This document shows, one piece after another, positions 24,326 through 53,432 of a stretch of 64,000 bases of DNA. Location of the stretch: assembly GCA_951406725.2 (NCBI GenBank), contig OX597822.1, positions 94,550,001 to 94,614,000 of the forward strand, in the 5' to 3' direction. Below the pieces are notes generated by a model, which was not told the DNA's origin, ran no database searches, and saw nothing but the letters and a program-made list of their open reading frames with translations. The position numbers were made by a program, and so were the translations under genes. This stretch comes from Octopus vulgaris (lineage: Eukaryota). Position 1 is the stretch's first letter; every line of letters begins with the position of its first letter.

Positions 24326-24361
24326 ACCCTGCTATTTACTAACTGTACAGTAGTAGGTTCA

Positions 24362-24775
24362 TTACTACCCACAAGGAGCTAAGCACAGAGAGGATAAACA
24401 AGGACAGACACACAGATTAAGTCAATTATATCGACCCCAATGCATAACTGATACTTAATTTATCGACCCCGAAAGGATGAAAGGCAAAGTCGACCTCGGT
24501 GGAATTTGAACTCAGAACGTAGCGACAGACGAAATACCTATTTCTATTTCTTTACTACCCACAAGGGGCTAAACACAGAGAGGACAAACAAAGACAGACA
24601 CACAGATTAAGTCGATTATATCGACCCCAGTGCGTAACTGATACTTATTTAATCGACCCTGAATGGATGAAAGGCAAAGTCGACCTCGGCGGAATTTGAA
24701 CTCAGAACATAGCGGCAGACGAAATACCACTAGGCATTTCGCCTGGCGTGCTAATGAGTATGCCAGCTCGCTGCC
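24362..24775 (-). mobile_element. Tandem dimer of SINE family B
   Basis: Two head-to-tail units joined at gaaatacctatttc; the 5' head occurs only once. Confidence 0.88.
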
Positions 24776-30826: not shown

Positions 30827-30966
30827 AGCGCAGGAGTGGCTGTGTGGTAAATAGCTTGTTTACCAACCACATGGTTCCGGGTTCAGTCCCACTGCGTGGC
30901 ACCTTGGGCAAGTGTCTTCTACTATAGCCTCGGGCCGACCAAAGCCTTATATGTATATGTATATGT

Positions 30967-31000
<34 letters not shown>

Positions 31001-34000
31001 ATTTATGTGAGCACATATTCTTAATAATTGGTACGACTCTCTGTTTGTCTCTCTCTCTCTCTCATTTTTACTTGATCTGTCCCCCTCTCTCTCTTTTCTC
31101 TCTACTCATCCTCTTTTTCTCTTCTCTTTCCTCTGATTCTTTGGTCTAGTCTTCCACTACCCTCCTATTTCTTTGTCTCGCTCTGCACTCACAGGTCATT
31201 CTTCGACACCCATCCCTTCTCCTCTCTGATTCCTCCTTTCTCTCTCTTTCTCTCTCTTTGTTGCGTTTGTCCCTCCTCTCTCTCTCTCTTCCTTTGCTTC
31301 TCTTTCTTTTCTTTTCCCTCTTCTCTGTCACGTGACTGTTGGCCGAAATCTGCCTTTCAGCCTCTAACCCTCGTTCTGTTAACATCGCTGTTTTCGTCCG
31401 CCACTATAAAGGCTTTTTCCATTGCGCCAGAGAAAAAATTTGTTTGCTTGTTATCAGTCGTAAGACACTGTTGTTTTCACCGTTAATGCTTCTGTATTTC
31501 ATGTTTCTGTATTCCATTATTGTTTTTTGTTTTTTTATATCTGTCCCTTTTGCTGTCCTGGTGTTCGTATGCATTCGATCCTTCTTCCAGGAAATCTACG
31601 CTTCCAGCTTAGTTTTTCTAATGCTCGTTGCTTGGTTTTTCTTGGAGGGCTGGCCGTGATCTAGTAATCTCAAGATTAATCAGCCGAAATTACTACGATG
31701 ATCCGGTTCTTGACTGAAGACTGAGGGTTTCGAATGTCCTGTCCGTGTTTATTGTGTCGTCTTCTAAGAGTTATACGTTCTTGTCCATGTTGTATTTTTC
31801 TACATACCTTAACATATATTCCAGGCGCCCCGTACCCCCCTTAACATTTATGTGAGCACATATTCTTAATAATTGGTACGACTCTCTGTTTGTCTCTCTC
31901 TCTCTCTCATTTTTACTTGATCTGTCCCCCTCTCTCTCTTTTCTCTCTACTCATCCTCTTTTTCTCTTCTCTTTCCTCTGATTCTTTGGTCTAGTCTTCC
32001 ACTACCCTCCTATTTCTTTGTCTCGCTCTGCACTCACAGGTCATTCTTCGACACCCATCCCTTCTCCTCTCTGATTCCTCCTTTCTCTCTCTTCTCTCTC
32101 TTTGTTGCGTTTGTCCCTCTCTCTCTCTCTCTTCCTTTGCTTCTCTTTCTTTTCTTTTCCCTCTTCTCTGTCACGTGACTGTTGGCCGAAATCTGCCTTT
32201 CAGCCTCTGACCCTCGTTCTGTTAACATCGCTGTTTTCGTCCGCCACTATAAAGGCTTTTTCCATTGCGCCAGAGAAAAAATTTGTTTGCTTGTTATCAG
32301 TCGTAAGACACTGTTGTTTTCACCGTTAATGCTTCTGTATTTCATGTTTCTGTATTCCATTATTGTTTTTTGTTTTTTTATATCTGTCCCTTTTGCTGTC
32401 CTGGTGTTCGTATGCATTCGATCCTTCTTCCAGGAAATCTACGCTTCCAGCTTAGTTTTTCTAATGCTCGTTGCTTGGTTTTTCTTGGAGGGCTGGCCGT
32501 GATCTAGTAATCTCAAGATTAATCAGCCGAAATTACTACGATGATCCGGTTCTTGACTGAAGACTGAGGGTTTCGAATGTCCTGTCCGTGTTTATTGTGT
32601 CGTCTTCTAAGAGTTATACGTTCTTGTCCATGTTGTATTTTTCTACATACCTTAACATATATTCCAGGCGCCCCGTACCCCCCTTAACATTTATGTGAGC
32701 ACATATTCTTAATAATTGGTACGACTCTCTGTTTGTCTCTCTCTCTCTCTCATTTTTACTTGATCTGTCCCCCTCTCTCTCTTTTCTCTCTACTCATCCT
32801 CTTTTTCTCTTCTCTTTCCTCTGATTCTTTGGTCTAGTCTTCCACTACCCTCCTATTTCTTTGTCTCGCTCTGCACTCACAGGTCATTCTTCGACACCCA
32901 TCCCTTCTCCTCTCTGATTCCTCCTTTCTCTCTCTTCTCTCTCTTTGTTGCGTTTGTCCCTCCTCTCTCTCTCTCTTCCTTTGCTTCTCTTTCTTTTCTT
33001 TTCCCTCTTCTCTGTCACGTGACTGTTGGCCGAAATCTGCCTTTCAGCCTCTGACCCTCGTTCTGTTAACATCGCTGTTTTCGTCCGCCACTATAAAGGC
33101 TTTTTCCATTGCGCCAGAGAAAAAATTTGTTTGCTTGTTATCAGTCGTAAGACACTGTTGTTTTCACCGTTAATGCTTCTGTATTTCATGTTTCTGTATT
33201 CCATTATTGTTTTTTGTTTTTTTATATCTGTCCCTTTTGCTGTCCTGGTGTTCGTATGCATTCGATCCTTCTTCCAGGAAATCTACGCTTCCAGCTTAGT
33301 TTTTCTAATGCTCGTTGCTTGGTTTTTCTTGGAGGGCTGGCCGTGATCTAGTAATCTCAAGATTAATCAGCCGAAATTACTACGATGATCCGGTTCTTGA
33401 CTGAAGACTGAGGGTTTCGAATGTCCTGTCCGTGTTTATTGTGTCGTCTTCTAAGAGTTATACGTTCTTGTCCATGTTGTATTTTTCTACATACCTTAAC
33501 ATATATTCCAGGCGCCCCGTACCCCCCTTAACATTTATGTGAGCACATATTCTTAATAATTGGTACGACTCTCTGTTTGTCTCTCTCTCTCTCTCTCATT
33601 TTTACTTGATCTGTCCCCCTCTCTCTCTTTTCTCTCTACTCATCCTCTTTTTCTCTTCTCTTTCCTCTGATTCTTTGGTCTAGTCTTCCACTACCCTCCT
33701 ATTTCTTTGTCTCGCTCTGCACTCACAGGTCATTCTTCGACACCCATCCCTTCTCCTCTCTGATTCCTCCTTTCTCTCTCTTCTCTCTCTTTGTTGCGTT
33801 TGTCCCTCCTCTCTCTCTCTCTTCCTTTGCTTCTCTTTCTTTTCTTTTCCCTCTTCTCTGTCACGTGACTGTTGGCCGAAATCTGCCTTTCAGCCTCTGA
33901 CCCTCGTTCTGTTAACATCGCTGTTTTCGTCCGCCACTATAAAGGCTTTTTCCATTGCGCCAGAGAAAAAATTTGTTTGCTTGTTATCAGTCGTAAAGAC

Positions 34001-36264
34001 ACTGTTGTTTTCACCGTTAATGCTTCTGTATTTCATGTTTCTGTATTCCATTATTGTTTTTTGTTTTTTTATATCTGTCCCTTTTGCTGTCCTGGTGTTC
34101 GTATGCATTCGATCCTTCTTCCAGGAAATCTACGCTTCCAGCTTAGTTTTTCTAATGCTCGTTGCTTGGTTTTTCTTGGAGGGCTGGCCGTGATCTAGTA
34201 ATCTCAAGATTAATCAGCCGAAATTACTACGATGATCCGGTTCTTGACTGAAGACTGAGGGTTTCGAATGTCCTGTCCGTGTTTATTGTGTCGTCTTCTA
34301 AGAGTTATACGTTCTTGTCCATGTTGTATTTTTCTACATACCTTAACATATATTCCAGGCGCCCCGTACCCCCCTTAACATTTATGTGAGCACATATTCT
34401 TAATAATTGGTACGACTCTCTGTTTGTCTCTCTCTCTCTCTCATTTTTACTTGATCTGTCCCCCTCTCTCTCTTTTCTCTCTACTCATCCTCTTTTTCTC
34501 TTCTCTTTCCTCTGATTCTTTGGTCTAGTCTTCCACTACCCTCCTATTTCTTTGTCTCGCTCTGCACTCACAGGTCATTCTTCGACACCCATCCCTTCTC
34601 CTCTCTGATTCCTCCTTTCTCTCTCTTCTCTCTCTTTGTTGCGTTTGTCCCTCCTCTCTCTCTCTCTTCCTTTGCTTCTCTTTCTTTTCTTTTCCCTCTT
34701 CTCTGTCACGTGACTGTTGGCCGAAATCTGCCTTTCAGCCTCTGACCCTCGTTCTGTTAACATCGCTGTTTTCGTCCGCCACTATAAAGGCTTTTTCCAT
34801 TGCGCCAGAGAAAAAATTTGTTTGCTTGTTATCAGTCGTAAGACACTGTTGTTTTCACCGTTAATGCTTCTGTATTTCATGTTTCTGTATTCCATTATTG
34901 TTTTTTGTTTTTTTATATCTGTCCCTTTTGCTGTCCTGGTGTTCGTATGCATTCGATCCTTCTTCCAGGAAATCTACGCTTCCAGCTTAGTTTTTCTAAT
35001 GCTCGTTGCTTGGTTTTTCTTGGAGGGCTGGCCGTGATCTAGTAATCTCAAGATTAATCAGCCGAAATTACTACGATGATCCGGTTCTTGACTGAAGACT
35101 GAGGGTTTCGAATGTCCTGTCCGTGTTTATTGTGTCGTCTTCTAAGAGTTATACGTTCTTGTCCATGTTGTATTTTTCTACATACCTTAACATATATTCC
35201 AGGCCCCGTACCCCCTTAACATTTATGTGAGCACATATTCTTAATAATTGGTACGACTCTCTGTTTGTCTCTCTCTCTCTCTCATTTTTACTTGATCTGT
35301 CCCCCTCTCTCTCTTTTCTCTCTACTCATCCTCTTTTTCTCTTCTCTTTCCTCTGATTCTTTGGTCTAGTCTTCCACTACCCTCCTATTTCTTTGTCTCG
35401 CTCTGCACTCACAGGTCATTCTTCGACACCCATCCCTTCTCCTCTCTGATTCCTCCTTTCTCTCTCTTCTCTCTCTTTGTTGCGTTTGTCCCTCCTCTCT
35501 CTCTCTCTTCCTTTGCTTCTCTTTCTTTTCTTTTCCCTCTTCTCTGTCACGTGACTGTTGGCCGAAATCTGCCTTTCAGCCTCTGACCCTCGTTCTGTTA
35601 ACATCGCTGTTTTCGTCCGCCACTATAAAGGCTTTTTCCATTGCGCCAGAGAAAAAATTTGTTTGCTTGTTATCAGTCGTAAGACACTGTTGTTTTCACT
35701 CTCTTCTCTCTCTTTGTTGCGTTTGTCCCTCCTCTCTCTCTCTCTTCCTTTGCTTCTCTTTCTTTTCTTTTCCCTCTTCTCTGTCACGTGACTGTTGGCC
35801 GAAATCTGCCTTTCAGCCTCTGACCCTCGTTCTGTTAACATCGCTGTTTTCGTCCGCCACTATAAAGGCTTTTTCCATTGCGCCAGAGAAAAAATTTGTT
35901 TGCTTGTTATCAGTCGTAAGACACTGTTGTTTTCACCGTTAATGCTTCTGTATTTCATGTTTCTGTATTCCATTATTGTTTTTTGTTTTTTTATATCTGT
36001 CCCTTTTGCTGTCCTGGTGTTCGTATGCATTCGATCCTTCTTCCAGGAAATCTACGCTTCCAGCTTAGTTTTTCTAATGCTCGTTGCTTGGTTTTTCTTG
36101 GAGGGCTGGCCGTGATCTAGTAATCTCAAGATTAATCAGCCGAAATTACTACGATGATCCGGTTCTTGACTGAAGACTGAGGGTTTCGAATGTCCTGTCC
36201 GTGTTTATTGTGTCGTCTTCTAAGAGTTATACGTTCTTGTCCATGTTGTATTTTTCTACATACC

Positions 36265-36304
<40 letters not shown>

Positions 36305-36515
36305 TGTGTGTGTTTGTTGTCACCCTTGCATTGCTTGACAACCGATGCTGGTGTGTTTATGTCTCCGTTAATTAGCGGTTCGGCAAAAGAGACCGATAGA
36401 ATAAGTACTGGGCTTACAAAAGAATAAGTCCCGGGGTCGAGTTGCTTGATTAAAGGCGGTGCACCAGCATGGCCGCAGTCAAAATGACTGAAACAAGTAA
36501 AAAGAGAAAAAAGAG
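30827..36515 (+). mobile_element. SINE family A split by the tandem array (head 30827-30948, tail ~36270-36515)
   Basis: Head and tail are collinear with intact copies; the array lies inside the central (TA)n tract. Confidence 0.8.
31001..36268. repeat. Tandem array of six near-identical ~845-bp units
   Basis: Units start (atttatgtgagcac) at 31001, 31846, 32689, 33533, 34380 and 35221; the last unit has an internal ~237-bp duplication. Confidence 0.97.
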
Positions 36516-38806: not shown

Positions 38807-40420
38807 TAATGGGTATCCAAAAGTAACCGGAATAGTTCTCTGTGGACAAACCTATTGTAGTTCAAGCTTCCACTGCTAGAAGCCACTTGATGCAACCCTC
38901 GGGAATCAGTCTGCCAACTGGCGCCATTGTGTGAAGTTGTACTGCCATGTGGTACGTCTTTGTTTTGTAGTGTATCACTTCTGTTCATCAATTTTTGCGA
39001 TGACTGAAACGAAAGAACAGCAAGCTTCTGTGAAATTCTGTTTTCTACTGGGGAAAATGGTAGTCAAACAGTTGTCATGCTTCAAACAGTTTACAAGGAT
39101 GCTGCCATGAGAAAAACACAAGTTTATAAGTGGTTTTCACGCTTTAGGAATGGTCACTTGTCACTTGAAGACCAACCTCCCGGAAGAATGAAAACATCGT
39201 GAAAATTCATGAACAATTGACGAACTGGTTGCTATGACTGGTGTGTCTTGGAGCTCCTGCCAACGAATTTTATATAAATAATAATGAAATTATTGTATAC
39301 AGTGCTCAGGTGCACCACAACTTGTCAGAAAGTGCATATAAAGTGTATGCAGTAATGTACAAATGTCTGGAAAGCGAATAATGTATGAGTCAGATACATG
39401 CTTGTGTGTGTATGGAGGGGAGAAAATCAAGTGTAGTGTTCGTGAATCTCAGAAAGCATGGAAGTTTTGAAGGATGCAGTGCTCCGACAACTAACAACCG
39501 ATGCCGGCAGTTTGTTCCATGCTTCAGCAACTCTCAGCGTGAAAAAATGTTTCCGAAAGTCATGGGAGCTGTGCTGTTTTCTGACTTTGTAAATATGTCC
39601 ATGGGTGGAGTTTGAAAAGGTGCTCAGAGTTATTGTTTGTAAGATGGTTAATAATTTTATGGTTGTCTGCCAAGTCAGCTGCCAGATGTCGGAGTTTCAA
39701 TGTGTCCACGCCCAGGGAAGTAAGGCATTCAAAATATACCTTACTGGCTAACAATCTCAGGAAGCATGGAAGTTTTGAAGGATGCAGTGCTCCGACAACT
39801 AACAACCGATGCCGGCAGTTTGTTCCATGCTTCAGCAACTCCAGAGTGAAAAAATGTTTCCTAAAGTCATGGGAGCTGTGCTGTTTTCTGACTTTGTTAA
39901 TATGTCCACGGGTGTTAGACGGGTGGAGTTTGAAACAGTGCTCAGAGTTATTGTTTGTAAGATGGTTAATAATTTTATAGGTGTCTGCCAAATCAGCTGC
40001 CAGACGTTGGAGTTTCAATGTGTCCATGCCCAGAGAAGTAAGGCGTTCAGAATATGCCTTACTGGCTATCAATCTCAGAAAGCATGGAAGTTTTGAAGGA
40101 TGCAGTGCTCCGACAACTAACAACCGATGCCAGCAGTTTGTTCCATGCTTCAGCAACTCCAGAGTGAAAAAATGTTTCCTAAAGTCATGGGAGCTGTGCT
40201 GTTTTCTGACTTTGGAAATATGTCCATGGGTGCTAGATGGGTGGAGTTTTGAGTGAAGGAATCATGATTGAAAAGAGTTGCAGCAAAATTTGTGTCTCAC
40301 TTGCTCATGAAAGATCAAAAGCAGTCACAACTGCATATTGTGAACTGAAAGAACAGCTGGAAGTTGATTTGAACCTTTTTCTGAAGGTCATTACTGGTGA
40401 TGAAAGCTGGTGCTACAGAA
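38807..40420 (+). mobile_element. Decayed mariner (irritans-like), interrupted by a LINE fragment
   Basis: From ~39000 MTETKEQQASVKFCFLLGK...KTQVYKWFSRFRNGHLSLEDQP; resumes at ~40251 with KRVAAKFV...KVITGDESWCY. Confidence 0.85.
39271..40250 (-). mobile_element. CR1/L2-like LINE 3' fragment with ~300-bp internal tandem duplications
   Basis: YSERLTSLGMDTLKLQRLAADLADTYKII...NTRGH...RKHFFTL motifs; the block gaagcatggaagttttgaaggatgcagtgctcc occurs three times. Confidence 0.85.
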
Positions 40421-46095: not shown

Positions 46096-46547
46096 GCCAC
46101 GAGTCGGATAGTGCTTTTTACGTACCACCAGACCAGGGATCCTGGCTGGTTCAATTCGATTTCGATTTCGCTTGCCCCAACATGTCTTCACAAGCAAAGG
46201 GGGTTGGCAAGGGTGCCTGTCGTACGGTCGCATTGGAGTATTTTACGTGCCACGGCCACGAGTCGGATAGTGCTTTTTACGTACCATCAGACCAGGGATC
46301 CTGGCTGGTTCAATTCGATTTCGATTTCGCTTGCCCCAACATGTCTTCACAAGCAAAGGGGGTTGGCATGGGTGCCTGTCGTACGGTCGCATTGGAGTAT
46401 TTTACGTGCCACGGCCACGAGTCGAATAGTGCTTTTTACGTACCACCAGGCCAGGGATCCTGGCTGGTTCAATTCGGTTTCGATTTCGATTTCGCTTGCC
46501 CCAACATGTCTTCGCAAGCATGGGGGGTTGGCATGGGTGTCTGTCGT
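46096..46547. repeat. 159-bp tandem repeat (~3 copies) in the RTE 3' UTR
   Basis: gccacgagtcg recurs at 46096, 46255 and 46414. Confidence 0.92.
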
Positions 46548-46630: not shown

Positions 46631-49600
46631 TCACTTGTCCTGCCTGGTCTTCTCACGTACAGAATATTTCCAAAGGTCTCGGTCTCTGGTCATTTCCTCA
46701 GTGAGGCCTAAAGTTCGAAGGTCGTGCTTCACCACCTCGTCCCAGGTTTTCCTGGGTCTACCTCTTCCACGGGTTCCCTCAACTGCTAGGGATTGGCACT
46801 TTCTCACACACCTATCTTCATCCATTCTCGCCACATGACCATACCAGCGCAATCGTCTCTCTTGCACACCACAACTGATGCTTCTTAGGTACAACATTTC
46901 TCTCAAGGTGCTAACGCTCTGTCGAGTATGTACACTGACATTACACATCCATCGGAGCATACTGGCTTCATTCCTCACGAGCTTACGCATGTCCTCAGCA
47001 GTCACGGCCCATGTTTCGCTGCCATGTAGCATGGCTGTTCGTACACACGCATCATACAGTCTGCCTTTTACTCTGAGCGAGAGGCCTTTAGTCACCAGCA
47101 GAGGTAAGAGCTCCCTAAACTTTGCCCAGGCTATTCTTATTCTAGCAGTTACACTTTCAGCGCACCCACCCCCACTACTGACTTGGTCACCTAGATAACG
47201 GAAGCTATCAACTACTTCTAGTTTTTCCCCCTGGAAAGTGACGGAAGTTGTTTTCTGCAGATTTTCGGAGGTTAATGCTCCCGAGCATCTGCCACATACA
47301 AAAACTATCTTCCCAGTTAGCCTACCTTTGACATTGCTGCACCTCTTATGTGTCCATAGCTTACACTGGGTACATCTTATAGAGTTTCTACCTACACCTT
47401 TTCTACAGATCGAGCAGGGCCATCTTCCTGAAGATATTTGTGGATTGTCTACCTTTCTACTTATTAGTACTTTGGTTTTAGCTAGGTTGACTCTAAGGCC
47501 CCTTGATTCTAAACCCTCCTTCCACACCTGGAACTTCTCCTCCAGTTCTGATAGTGACTCAGCAATAAGAGCAAGGTCGTCAGCGTAGAGGAGCTCCCAG
47601 GGACAGCCTGTCTTGAATTCCTCCGTAATTGCCTGGAGTACTATGATAAATAGGAGGGGGCTGAGTACTGAACCCTGGTGGACCCCAACCTCTACTTTGA
47701 ATTCTTCTGTGTACATGTTGCCAACCCTAACCTTACTTACGGCATCTCTGTACATGGCTTGCACAGTCCTCACCAGCCATTCATCTATCCCTAGTTTCCT
47801 CATTGACCACCAGATAAGGGATTGGGGGACCCTATCAAAAGCTTTCTCCATGTCAACGAAAGCCAGGTACAGGGGCTTATCTTTGGCTAGGTATTTCTCC
47901 TGCAGCTGCCTTACCAGGAATATAGCATCAGTGGTACTTTTCCCTGGCACGAACCCAAACTGCATCTCATCTAAACTAACTCTCTCTCTAATTAGTTGGG
48001 CTATGACCCTCTCCGTAACCTTCATTACTTGATCCAACAGCTTGATACCTCTGTAATTATTTGTATCTAGGGCATCACCTTTACCTTTGTAGCAGTTGAC
48101 TAGTATGCTGCTGCACCAGTCATTGGGTATGACTCCTTCGTGTATCACCTGGTTGACTATACGGGTGACTAGGTTATAGCCGACACTGCCAGATATTTTG
48201 AGCATCTCTGCAGTAATTCCTGATGGGCCTGGGGCTTTCCCTGTCTTCATGCTTCTAATTGCCTTAGCTACCACGGAACTATCAACTCGGATAGCTGGTC
48301 CCTCTGTAGGGTCAACATTTGGCAGACTCTCTTTATCCCATTCATTTTCCTCATTCAGTAACCTTTCATAGTGGCGTCTCCAAGCTTCTCTCTTTGCATC
48401 CTCATTTAGCGCAAGTGAACCATCCTCCATGCGAACACATTTCTCTCCTACCACATCACGATTCTCTCTCACACACTGTCTTGCAACACGAAATACCTCA
48501 AGTCTTTCATCCTCACGGCGCAGGACATTGGCAAATTTTCTCTTATCTGCTTCCCCTCTGGCTAGATAGACCTGTCTCCTAGCTTCCCTTCTGGCAGTCT
48601 GATACCCTTCCCTGCTACCACCGTTCTTCCAGGCCTTCCAAGCCTGTTTCTTTTGTCTAATAGCCCTGTCAACAATATTGTTCCACCACCACGTTATTTT
48701 GGGTCTTAAGGGGACTTTGCACCAGCCACAGATCTGGTCAGCGGCTTTCAGCAGGTTGTCCCTCAGAAACGTCCAGTTGTCTTCTACCCCATGTGTAGCT
48801 ATACCCCCTTCCACTTCGTCGAAGGCTTCAAGTAACATATCTCTAAATCTCTGTCCATTCGCAGGGGCTTTAAGCTTCCAGACCCTTCTTCTCCATGTTG
48901 GTCGTCTTCTAGTCGCCCTCTTAGTCCTGATCCTAAAGTCACTAACTACCAGTCTATGTTGTGGGGTACATTCTTCGCCTGGGAAGGTTTTGGCATTTTT
49001 AAGCAGCCATCTTTCCCTTTTTCTGGCAAGGATGTAGTCGATTTGGCTAGTATGCCGGCCCGATCGGTAGGTGACCAGGTGGCTTGTTGGTTTCCTGAAG
49101 TTAGTGTTGCAGACCATAAGACTATTCGCATCGCAGAACTCCAGCAGCCTGGTTCCCTCCTCGTTGCGGGAACCATAACCGTAGCCTCCATGTACGCCAT
49201 GGAAGCCCCCAGCATGTCGTCCAACATGCCCATTGAAATCACCAGCCACAAAGAGAAGGTCCCTGTCGTTCGTCGATGAGGTGGTCTGCAGTAGGGTGTC
49301 ATAGAAACTGTCTTTCTGTCCATCGGGTAGCCCTGGCTGAGGGGCATAGGCCGATATAATGGTTGCTAATCTATTATGAAGTACTATTCTAATCTTAAGT
49401 ATTCTGTCACTTACTCTGATTACCTCAACTACTCTATCTATCCATTTCTCAGCGATAAGTATACCCACGCCACCAACCCCGTCAGTGTTCCCTGCCCAGA
49501 AAATCTTGTACCTGTGTTCCTTGCCTGTGAGGACCCTGGCAGATCCTCCTCTCCACCTTATTTCTTGCATACAACATACATCAACACGTCTCCGTTCAAG

Positions 49601-49744
49601 CATCTCGACTATCTCGCCAGACCTACCTTTCAATGTGCCAACGTTGAGGGTGCCCACCCTGAGGGTGTGGGCCTCTGAGACCCTGGGATGAGGGGCCGCA
49701 GTGTTATGTACCTGAAAAGAAAGCTTGCATTTGCCAGATATCAT
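46631..49744 (-). CDS. RTE LINE polyprotein (1037 aa): APE endonuclease, reverse transcriptase and an internal PHD-type zinc finger
   Basis: GTLNV, QEIRW, SAYAP, AGDFNGHVG, IDYIL (APE); KAPGPSG, NYRGIKLL, QFGF, FVDMEKAFD, GVHQGSVLSP, LLYADD, FRYLG (RT); RRLRWYGHVAR; no stop codons. Confidence 0.96.
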   Translation of the reverse strand: MISGKCKLSFQVHNTAAPHPRVSEAHTLRVGTLNVGTLKGRSGEIVEMLERRRVDVCCMQEIRWRGGSARVLTGKEHRYKIFWAGNTDGVGGVGILIAEKWIDRVVEVIRVSDRILKIRIVLHNRLATIISAYAPQPGLPDGQKDSFYDTLLQTTSSTNDRDLLFVAGDFNGHVGRHAGGFHGVHGGYGYGSRNEEGTRLLEFCDANSLMVCNTNFRKPTSHLVTYRSGRHTSQIDYILARKRERWLLKNAKTFPGEECTPQHRLVVSDFRIRTKRATRRRPTWRRRVWKLKAPANGQRFRDMLLEAFDEVEGGIATHGVEDNWTFLRDNLLKAADQICGWCKVPLRPKITWWWNNIVDRAIRQKKQAWKAWKNGGSREGYQTARREARRQVYLARGEADKRKFANVLRREDERLEVFRVARQCVRENRDVVGEKCVRMEDGSLALNEDAKREAWRRHYERLLNEENEWDKESLPNVDPTEGPAIRVDSSVVAKAIRSMKTGKAPGPSGITAEMLKISGSVGYNLVTRIVNQVIHEGVIPNDWCSSILVNCYKGKGDALDTNNYRGIKLLDQVMKVTERVIAQLIRERVSLDEMQFGFVPGKSTTDAIFLVRQLQEKYLAKDKPLYLAFVDMEKAFDRVPQSLIWWSMRKLGIDEWLVRTVQAMYRDAVSKVRVGNMYTEEFKVEVGVHQGSVLSPLLFIIVLQAITEEFKTGCPWELLYADDLALIAESLSELEEKFQVWKEGLESRGLRVNLAKTKVLISRKVDNPQISSGRWPCSICRKGVGRNSIRCTQCKLWTHKRCSNVKGRLTGKIVFVCGRCSGALTSENLQKTTSVTFQGEKLEVVDSFRYLGDQVSSGGGCAESVTARIRIAWAKFRELLPLLVTKGLSLRVKGRLYDACVRTAMLHGSETWAVTAEDMRKLVRNEASMLRWMCNVSVHTRQSVSTLREMLYLRSISCGVQERRLRWYGHVARMDEDRCVRKCQSLAVEGTRGRGRPRKTWDEVVKHDLRTLGLTEEMTRDRDLWKYSVREKTRQDK

Positions 49745-49900
49745 ACTGAGACTCTAGACTACAACCTGCATAAATTTCAAAGTTTTTGCGCTATATGATC
49801 ACAATAAACCCTACATAGGGGGTGAGGGGGGGTCAAGAAAGATAGAAAACAGAAACTTCCGGTTCTGGTGGATGGGTGGGAGGGCGGGGTCACCTCCAAG

Positions 49901-52359: not shown

Positions 52360-53432
52360 AACTGGGTCTCGCTTTTCCACAACTTCCATCCACTTTAAGT
52401 GATTGGTACTTCTTCATGCTTCTCTCCTCATCCATTTGCATCACATATCATATGACCAAACTGTCTTAGTCTTCTCTCCTGCATACTGCATCTAATTCCT
52501 CTTTACTTAACTTTTCTTTCAATACACTGGCACTCTGTTGCACATGTGCACTAACATTGCACATCTAGCAGAGCATACCAGCTTCATTTCTCACTAGTTT
52601 CCATGTGTCCCCAGCATTCATGCCTGACTATCATTGTAGCATTGCAGTTCATACACAAATACCTATTTCTTTACTACCCACAAGGGGCTAAACACAGAGG
52701 GGACAAACAAGGACAGACAAACGGATTAAGTCGATTACATCGACCCCAGTGCGTAACTGGTACTTATTTTATCGACCCCGAAAGGATGAAAGGCAAAGTC
52801 GACCTCGGCGGAATTTGAACTCAGAACGTAGCGGCAGACGAAATACTTATTTCTTTACTACCCACAAAGGGCTAAACACAGAGAGGACAAACAAGGACAG
52901 ACAAACGGATTAAGTCGATTATATCGACCCCAGTGCGTAACTGGTACTTATTTAATCGACCCTGAAAGGATGAAAGGCAAAGTTGACCTTGGAGGAATTT
53001 GAACTCAGAACGTAACGGCAGATGAAATACCTATTTCTTTACTACCCACAAGGGGCTAAACACAGAGAGGACAAACAAGGACAGACAAACGGATTAAGTC
53101 GATTATATCGACCCCAGTGCGTAACTGGTACTTATTTTATCGACCCCGAAAGGATGAAAGGCAAAGTCGACCTCGGCGGAATTTGAACTCAGAACGTATC
53201 GGTAGACGAAATACCACAAAGCATTTCACCCGGCGTGCTAACGTTTCTGCTAGCTCATACACAAATACCATACAAACTTCCTTTCAGTTAGACAGAGAGA
53301 GACAGACTTTTGATTGCCAACAGAGGTAAAAGCTCTCTGAATTTTTTCCATCCTATTCTTATTCTAGCTATTACACTTTCAGTATATCTGCGAATAAGGT
53401 CACCAAGGTAGCAGAAATTATCTACTACATCA
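52360..53432 (-). pseudogene. Old RTE LINE fragment split by a SINE trimer
   Basis: Translation VVDNFCYLGDLI...ESVIARIRIGWKKFRELLPLL; collinear with ~46750-47220. Confidence 0.8.
52664..53254 (-). mobile_element. Head-to-tail trimer of SINE family B (184-bp period)
   Basis: Units at 52664, 52848 and 53032; TSD tcatacacaaatacc at 52649-52663 and 53255-53269. Confidence 0.92.

What the first reader, a model, noticed from the sequence alone, without database searches (positions are those of the whole stretch)
31001..36268. Six-unit ~845-bp non-coding tandem array inside a SINE (TA)n tract: candidate retrozyme-like or Penelope-dependent concatemer
Seen: six almost identical units, differing mostly by slippage-type indels and one substitution in unit 1. 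They are joined by a ~33-nt linker bracketed by ccttaacat, and the linker is absent at the array end. The array sits between (TA)n runs that split one SINE A into head and tail. Each unit has a strongly pyrimidine-skewed first half, a GTCACGTGAC palindrome, a TATAAA and a structured 3' module. Known: retrozymes and Penelope pseudo-LTRs occur as tandem concatemers with hammerheads, and metazoan retrozyme monomers are usually much shorter. Inference: a recent single insertion of a multimer made by rolling reverse transcription of a circular RNA, targeted to TA microsatellites.
Basis: partly seen in the sequence, partly recalled or inferred. Interest (0 to 1): 0.75.

Follow-up and report, generated by a model that had tools for sequence, protein, structure and literature searches.

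The report
Penelope-type repeat with rewired hammerhead ribozyme
This array is one of at least 850 young insertions of a protein-free jumping repeat whose every unit carries all the letters of a hammerhead self-cutting RNA in a scrambled order; short copies across the genome begin at the predicted cut, so the RNA likely cuts itself, and long arrays like this one were probably copied round an RNA circle by a Penelope-type enzyme.

Summary
The array is real: six 841-847-bp units, but unit 6 holds an unnoticed 237-bp internal duplication. It is no local satellite. The unit has at least 853 insertions with one fixed 3' end in (TA)n, variable 5' ends, a ~33-nt tail only between units and no ORF, the anatomy of a non-autonomous Penelope-like element. 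No canonical hammerhead is present. Each unit instead holds a complete hammerhead core in S-G-C order, with stem II supplied by an upstream strand. Four helices covary across sister families (93.8% paired, 0/500 shuffles), and the same fold with unrelated letters lies downstream of Naiad reverse transcriptases in this genome. TA-flanked 5' ends jump from 0.6 to 13 per base at the predicted cut. Cleavage, the circle and the helper enzyme are not shown; no intact Naiad was found. I found the fold in no paper searched; the scan noted the same fold earlier on other DNA, including this genome.

The parts
30828..30948 (+). Head of the host SINE-like repeat; about 41 nt normally present before its (TA)n are missing
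30949..31001 (.). Left (TA)n-type target tract
31002..31846 (+). Unit 1 (845 bp, one private substitution at 31366)
31847..32689 (+). Unit 2 (843 bp)
32690..33533 (+). Unit 3 (844 bp; reference for unit numbering)
33534..34380 (+). Unit 4 (847 bp)
34381..35221 (+). Unit 5 (841 bp)
35222..36268 (+). Unit 6, without tail, ending at the family's fixed 3' end
35457..35936 (+). 237-bp tandem duplication inside unit 6 (unit positions ~241-478 twice)
31327..31410 (+). GTCACGTGAC palindrome (31327) and TATAAA (31405), candidate promoter; CACGTGAC also seen in sister families B and C; promoter function untested; repeated in each unit
31813..31846 (+). ~33-nt tail between units, absent at the array's 3' end (repeated after units 1-5)
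31648..31720 (+). Rearranged hammerhead, unit 1; predicted cut after 31669
32491..32563 (+). Rearranged hammerhead, unit 2; predicted cut after 32512
33335..33407 (+). Rearranged hammerhead, unit 3; predicted cut after 33356 (unit position 667/668)
34182..34254 (+). Rearranged hammerhead, unit 4; predicted cut after 34203
35026..35098 (+). Rearranged hammerhead, unit 5; predicted cut after 35047
36104..36176 (+). Rearranged hammerhead, unit 6; predicted cut after 36125
36269..36301 (.). Right (TA)n target tract
36305..36502 (+). Tail of the host SINE-like repeat

Best explanation
The array is one insertion of a young non-coding repeat family with Penelope-like ends, and each unit carries a hammerhead core wired in S-G-C order with stem II supplied by an upstream strand; the RNA likely cuts itself there, and a Penelope-type RT/GIY-YIG enzyme, probably of Naiad ancestry and not yet identified, likely pastes it into (TA)n. 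Shown: dispersal, fixed 3' end, tail, variable 5' ends, covarying fold, 5'-end pile-up at the predicted cut, same fold behind Naiad RTs. Inferred steps: (1) a tandem copy is transcribed through at least two ribozymes from the TATAAA region; (2) cleavage after unit position 667 releases ~844-nt monomers; (3) the helper nicks (TA)n and primes inside the RNA at the AU-rich site near position 810, leaving the tail off; (4) on linear cut RNA the RT runs off at the cut and gives the abundant ~143-bp copies; (5) on ligated circles it runs on round after round and gives arrays such as this 6.3-unit one (about 55% for the circle given the rest).
For: Dispersal: 1422 candidates, 40 of 40 scored about 100% identical; 853 exact 3' ends followed by TA; 341 internal tail junctions. 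All 25 other loci fetched end at unit position ~810-817 in TA with 5' ends spread over the unit, one with an inverted 5' copy, none joined to an RT ORF. Young intact PLEs in the genome have the same end anatomy. Fold: 93.8% of 650 cells paired, 12 of 25 pairs with two-sided changes, 0/500 shuffles, slid controls 12-47%; descriptor hits the six units and nothing else in the window, 0 hits in 60 shuffled windows; 9237 pattern matches against 3 controls. Unrelated letters, same wiring in Naiad 3' ends (published consensus read by eye; 192 genomic matches; helices counted; downstream of Naiad RT on the same strand). Cut: minus-strand TA-flanked 5' junctions 19 in 620-650, 11 in 649-667, about 156 in 668-679, 39 in 680-710; 45 of 47 loci lacking C667 are true junctions at 668; Naiad family 8 of 8 junctions at or after its own predicted cut (p about 0.002). 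Circle: 43 first-pass against 2 later-pass stops at 668, about 17 expected at equal rate (p about 1e-5); allele C234 is in all six units and otherwise in only two units of one shorter array.
Against: No cleavage, RNA end or circle was observed; only contigs, mostly merely guessed to be RNA, were available. Stem II is not contiguous with CUGAnGA, against the block rule of PMC10085705 (0-1 pair in cis in this family), so activity cannot be taken for granted. No autonomous element sharing this family's sequence was found among the PLE and Naiad loci scanned, and all Naiad RT matches scored were broken or short. Two arrays stop at 668 on a later pass and some arrays have mixed units (L033 one unit of nine, L048, L177, L224), so linear multimers or template switches also occur. 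The stem II compensatory change rests on 3 rows of 26 within the superfamily, and core letters in that alignment were forced by my selection pattern. The pile-up spreads about 10 nt downstream of the cut into an AT-rich stretch where microhomology with TA can add junctions. The first- and later-pass totals are estimates from 100 of 927 listed places.
Confidence: 0.68

Rival explanations
1. Same element and ribozyme, but arrays come from long linear transcripts of donor arrays that escape cleavage altogether, with no circle.
For: Two later-pass stops at the cut and mixed-unit arrays; a fold that sometimes fails for a whole transcript would also give read-through; arrays of 8.8 units exist as possible donors.
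Against: Linear copying can only shorten arrays, and no C234 array longer than this one is in the assembly; equal, independent cleavage at each site predicts about 17 later-pass stops, 2 seen.
Confidence: 0.25
2. The fold is not catalytic: it is a protein-binding or RT-stalling structure, or the 668 boundary is an internal transcription start.
For: Stem II is split from CUGAnGA; only 1 of 9 tested Xenopus retrozyme dimers cleaved in vitro (bioRxiv 10.64898/2026.07.22.740005); no direct RNA data here.
Against: All hammerhead core letters and an NUH triplet with H = C or A in 26 of 26 rows; the boundary falls at the nucleotide predicted by hammerhead analogy in two families with unrelated letters; an RT stalled by structure would be expected to stop at the 3' edge of the fold, where junction density is ten times lower (inference).
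Confidence: 0.15
3. The active core uses the second CGAA that follows CUGAnGA and a short hairpin (a Penelope minimal-hammerhead relic), or takes only G10.1 from the C block after a 1-2-nt bulge.
For: A second CGAA and a two-pair hairpin are kept in families A-D; a G follows A9 after two bases in 22 of 26 rows; a bulge between 9 and 10.1 is typical of Penelope minimal hammerheads (PMC4209133).
Against: The second CGAA is followed by U, not A15.1, in most families and cannot form stem III; the Naiad version has no second CGAA and a 6-bp upstream stem II. The G10.1-from-C-block variant is not excluded.
Confidence: 0.12
4. A short insertion expanded locally by unequal exchange, or the unit number is an assembly artefact.
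For: Private allele shared by all six units would also follow from local expansion; the 237-bp duplication shows some local or assembly rearrangement.
Against: Multi-unit arrays with the same ends occur on many contigs (22 of 72 listed loci have 2-4 modules; up to 8.8 units); units differ by private small changes, which a simple assembly duplication would not give.
Confidence: 0.1

Closest known systems
Animal non-LTR retrozymes (PMC7229834, passages read; bioRxiv 10.64898/2026.07.22.740005, parts 1-3 of 5 read)
   Same: Non-coding head-to-tail units with a hammerhead core in each, dispersed, unit length within 51-972 bp, proposed to derive from PLE pseudo-LTRs and to move through circular RNA.
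   Different: They are defined by a type I (C-G-S) hammerhead; this one has S-G-C order with a split core. Circular RNA is shown for them, not here.
Type-SGC hammerheads, HRIMA-1 and variants (PMC10085705; sections 4, 13, 14, 15 and part 1 of 18 read, supplements not read)
   Same: Order site of cleavage, GAAA, CUGAnGA; short linker from stem I to stem II; complete core; covarying stems I and III.
   Different: There stem II follows CUGAnGA directly (their block rule); here its 5' strand lies upstream of the cleavage strand and an extra helix extends stem III. They came from hairpin-ribozyme contigs and pattern searches of RefSeq, metagenomes and metatranscriptomes; the main text has no octopus or mollusc mention and retrotransposons appear only in a reference. 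They were shown to cleave.
Naiad Penelope-like elements and non-autonomous Chlamys elements such as MRC1 (PMC8557442; passages, section 6, supplement parts 1 and 24 and searches read)
   Same: Partial tandems, 5' truncation, inverted 5' copy, 30-40-bp tail at one end, (TA)n targets, non-autonomous multicopy head-to-tail derivatives; octopus and bobtail squid Naiads are flagged HHR_half_core.
   Different: The paper reports no canonical hammerhead in Naiads and does not describe this fold; this family shares the fold but no detectable sequence with the Naiad copies held, and has no ORF.
Minimal hammerheads of Penelope pseudo-LTRs (PMC4209133, parts 1-2 of 4 read)
   Same: Hammerhead core in the terminal repeat; proposal that cleavage and ligation give circles for more-than-unit reverse transcription.
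   Different: Type I order, no helix III, need dimers, low activity; here helix III is 5-7 bp inside one unit.

Membership tests
Animal non-LTR retrozyme | Non-coding head-to-tail repeats, dispersed | tested here: met
Animal non-LTR retrozyme | Type I (C-G-S) hammerhead in each unit | tested here: not met
   No Rfam ribozyme match; core is in S-G-C order
Animal non-LTR retrozyme | Monomeric circular RNA in vivo | not testable with these tools
   Only contigs available; a self-closing contig fits tandem DNA as well
Non-autonomous Penelope-like element | Partial tandems with fixed 3' end and variable 5' truncation | tested here: met
   25 of 25 other loci; 853 exact 3' ends
Non-autonomous Penelope-like element | 30-40-bp tail at one end only; occasional inverted 5' copy; (TA)n target | tested here: met
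   Tail between units only; inversion in 1 of 25 loci; TA after every 3' end
Non-autonomous Penelope-like element | No ORF of its own | tested here: met
   Longest stop-to-stop frame in the first two units 136 aa, low complexity
Non-autonomous Penelope-like element | 3' similarity to an autonomous partner | tested here: inconclusive
   No sequence match in PLE or Naiad 3' flanks held; same fold downstream of Naiad RTs; searches score only the best candidates
Type-SGC hammerhead | Block order S, G, C with all core letters | tested here: met
Type-SGC hammerhead | Stems I and III with covariation | tested here: met
   4 of 6 and 3 of 5 pairs with two-sided changes; wholly different letters in Naiad
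Type-SGC hammerhead | Stem II strand directly after CUGAnGA | tested here: not met
   0-1 pair in cis (0-2 in Naiad) against 5-6 pairs with the upstream strand
Type-SGC hammerhead | Self-cleavage at the predicted site | not testable with these tools
   Genomic proxy only: 5' junction step at 668

The most novel reading that the evidence does not exclude
A four-strand hammerhead, opened between A9 and G10.1 and outside the six published permutations, is an active ribozyme of cephalopod Naiad retroelements and of a ~9000-copy non-coding superfamily; it makes ~844-nt RNA circles that are copied round and round into the genome, and the genome itself records both the cut site and the rolling.
Probability: 0.45. 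Interest if true: 0.85.

Novelty: new variant of a known kind. Interest (0 to 1): 0.72.

Why it matters
It would add a hammerhead wiring that breaks the published block rule, place a non-circularly permuted ribozyme in an animal genome in thousands of copies, and supply a ribozyme for at least the cephalopod Naiads, a Penelope clade reported to lack one. The junction profile gives a rare in-genome readout of where such an RNA is cut and how it is copied, making the long-proposed link between hammerhead cleavage, RNA circles and Penelope tandem insertions directly testable with one 113-nt construct and one northern blot.

Tried and rejected
Rfam search: no ribozyme family. Simple folding of the module on either strand: not more stable than shuffles. 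Helper search: 50 GIY-YIG loci, 30 loci of a 775-aa family and 45 loci of 1025/1312-aa families, 66 Naiad RT loci: none carries this family's module as its own 3' end; three module hits near Naiad RTs lie upstream and look like separate insertions. The L047 ORF first taken for a Naiad has a C-terminal GIY-YIG relative. An RLE-type retroelement as helper: 0 of 7 held 3' flanks have the core; HERO elements were not tested. Metagenome pattern scan: 119 matches, 1 with both stems, taken as chance. Four nematode, spider and ostracod 'half-core' Naiad ends seen in the supplement did not show the S-G-C order by eye (three look like type I cores with a long stem II); the bobtail squid one did, with a weak stem II; six further Naiad ends showed nothing by eye. 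The 237-bp duplication junction was bridged by no contig in 4 runs: contigs drop rare variants, so this neither confirms nor refutes it. The one raw DNA run gave 2 partial reads in 1934 million letters, unexplained (filtering or another lineage), so junction and empty-site tests in reads failed. No splice joint appeared in RNA contigs. Literature searches found no description of this fold; PMC5785218 was not held and supplements of PMC10085705 and of the bioRxiv preprint were not seen, and could hold related sequences.
Full report
Observation. The array is at the stated place: units start at 31002, 31847, 32690, 33534, 34381 and 35222. Units 1-5 are 841-847 bp and differ by slippage indels and one substitution in unit 1. 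A ~33-nt tail joins the units and is absent at the end (36268), where (TA)n follows. The flanks are head and tail of one SINE-like repeat, with about 41 nt missing before the left TA tract. No frame of coding type is present. Positions below use unit 3 numbering (1 = 32690). The genome is probably an octopus: it holds 192 exact matches to a motif of a published octopus Naiad consensus; this is an inference.

A mobile family. A 531-nt piece gave 1422 candidates; all 40 scored were about 100% identical, on many contigs. I fetched 26 stretches covering 25 other loci, chosen from these top hits and so biased to long copies. All 25 end at position ~810-817 followed by TA, begin at scattered positions, hold 1.7-8.8 units, and none is joined to an RT ORF; one has an inverted 5' copy. 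Exact patterns give 853 3' ends in TA, 341 internal tail junctions and 927 modules. Fixed 3' end, partial tandems, inverted 5' copy, 30-40-bp tail and (TA)n targets are the listed features of Penelope-like elements, and non-autonomous head-to-tail derivatives are known (PMC8557442). Young intact PLEs of 781, 775 and 1312 aa in this genome show fixed 3' ends in TA, the first with partial tandems.

The 3' module. Two weak hits led to sister families B and C, also non-coding and partly tandem. A core pattern has 9237 matches against 3 for the reversed control. Read across families, the module holds every hammerhead core letter in the order: upstream strand GGCUG; helix b; stem III strand, U16.1 and C or A at 17; stem I; 5-nt link; CAGCC, GAA, A15.1, stem III; helix b partner; stem I partner; CUGAnGA. 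On 26 rows (45 distinct modules reduced to 27 at 93% identity; one truncated row and one duplicate of the window dropped, the window added) 93.8% of 650 cells pair, 12 of 25 pairs change on both sides, 0 of 500 shuffles reach this, and slid controls give 12-47%. The core letters and, loosely, the stem II strands were forced by my selection pattern; stems I, III and b were not. Position 17 is C in 23 and A in 3 rows. A descriptor finds the six units and nothing else in the window, and 0 hits in 60 shuffled windows. The loop between stem III and helix b has GGA in 24 of 26 and GA in 24 of 26 rows, which fits a kink-turn (lead from earlier scan notes; consensus recalled); this family's unit has a variant (CUA).

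Relation to known ribozymes. The order is that of type-SGC hammerheads, which cleave in vitro (PMC10085705). That paper assumes CUGAnGA cannot be parted from its stem II strand. Here the bases after A9 give at most 1 pair (2 in Naiad), the upstream strand 5-6. So it works like, but is not filed as, type SGC. The 3' ends of the published Naiad_Ovul consensus and of the record before it, flagged only HHR_half_core or unflagged, show by eye the same four helices with unrelated letters and no second CGAA. In G000 these helices were counted on 30 copies: most keep 6-bp stem II, 5-bp stem III, 6-bp stem I and A17, and the motif lies 0.7-1.4 kb downstream of Naiad RT matches on the same strand at several loci, e.g. 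L506, L510, L519, L526, L528, L534, L540, L570. The bobtail squid Naiad shows the same order with a weak stem II; four nematode, spider and ostracod half-core ends do not (by eye).

Evidence for cutting. If the RNA is cut after C667, copies should begin at 668. Counting minus-strand matches, which the tool lists once per locus, TA-flanked 5' junctions number 19 in 620-650, 11 in 649-667, 167 in 649-679 and 39 in 680-710: 0.6, 0.6, 13 and 1.3 per base. The upstream control also has AT-rich bases, so microhomology alone does not explain the step, though it may widen it. Of 47 loci lacking C667, 45 are true junctions exactly at 668 and 2 are point changes. In the Naiad family all 8 TA-flanked junctions in the 30 nt before GAAA lie at or after its predicted cut. 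A contig from another sample also starts at 33357 behind TA-rich letters.

How arrays arise. Of the 45 exact junctions, 43 are ~143-bp single copies and 2 are multi-unit. From 100 listed places, 28% of modules are later passes, giving about 667 first and 260 later arrivals; equal stopping predicts about 17 later stops, 2 are seen (p about 1e-5; a rough estimate). So copies that pass the cut once usually pass it again: templates fall into cut linear RNAs and a class without a stop, either ligated circles or wholly uncut transcripts. Units within most arrays share a haplotype, and the window's allele C234 occurs in its six units and in two units of one 2.4-unit array only, so no longer donor is in this assembly. 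Against a pure circle model: two later-pass stops and several mixed arrays. The 237-bp duplication lies in the unit that would be copied first and has a short microhomology, which would fit an RT jump, but a later event or an assembly error is not excluded.

Expression and helper. 20 of 24 listed runs hold the unit or part of it, 2 on record as RNA and most only guessed to be RNA; contigs of two such runs cover all 29 bins, and one 874-nt contig closes on itself with the unit period, which fits tandem DNA as well as a circle. Transcription is therefore not shown. No autonomous element with this family's sequence was found; Naiad RT matches were all broken or short (134 of 752 candidates scored), in line with PMC8557442's statement that cephalopod Naiads are remnants. 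The fold points to Naiad ancestry; the live helper may be an unseen Naiad or one of the intact TA-targeting PLE families.

Verdict. The element class (retrozyme-like, Penelope-dependent) is known; the ribozyme wiring is not in any paper my searches reached. After my own tests I found that earlier scan notes report the same fold on other DNA of this and other genomes and separate canonical-hammerhead retrozyme families in this genome; these are unchecked notes, not independent support. New variant of a known kind, interest 0.72.

Noticed in passing
window 46634-49753 (-): Open 1040-aa frame with endonuclease, reverse transcriptase and PHD-finger matches: an apparently intact LINE.
   Followed up: partly
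window 24358-24728, 39445-40249, 46096-46547, 52657-53215: Partial tandem repeats of 190, 318, 159 and 184 bp, 2-3 copies each, two with similar units; possibly other tandemly inserted short retroelements.
   Followed up: no
L087-L102, L398-L427, L458-L472: At least three young PLE families with open RT/GIY-YIG-type frames (781 aa plus a 479-aa upstream frame, 775 aa with many identical copies, 1312 aa) ending in (TA)n.
   Followed up: partly
L568:2389 (+) and L527:3175 (-): Further S-G-C cores: one with a 7-bp stem I from an unknown family, one from another sister family with new compensatory changes.
   Followed up: no
L458, L464, L437 3' ends: The 1025-aa PLE family has a GAAA before a UGAUGA near its 3' end, with a hairpin that does not fit my descriptor.
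   Followed up: partly
window 32695-32700 and sister families (L169, L116): A GT(G/A)AG splice-donor-like motif just after the tail and a CTAAT...TTAG acceptor-like motif before the ribozyme recur in families A-C; no spliced form was seen.
   Followed up: partly
run X23 on window 32980-33700: A raw DNA run with the same species label gave only 2 partial reads in 1934 million letters, although the family has about a thousand copies in this assembly; filtering or absence in another lineage.
   Followed up: no
L033:6602-8090: Inverted 1.7-unit array abutting a 7-unit array, a twin-priming-like junction.
   Followed up: partly
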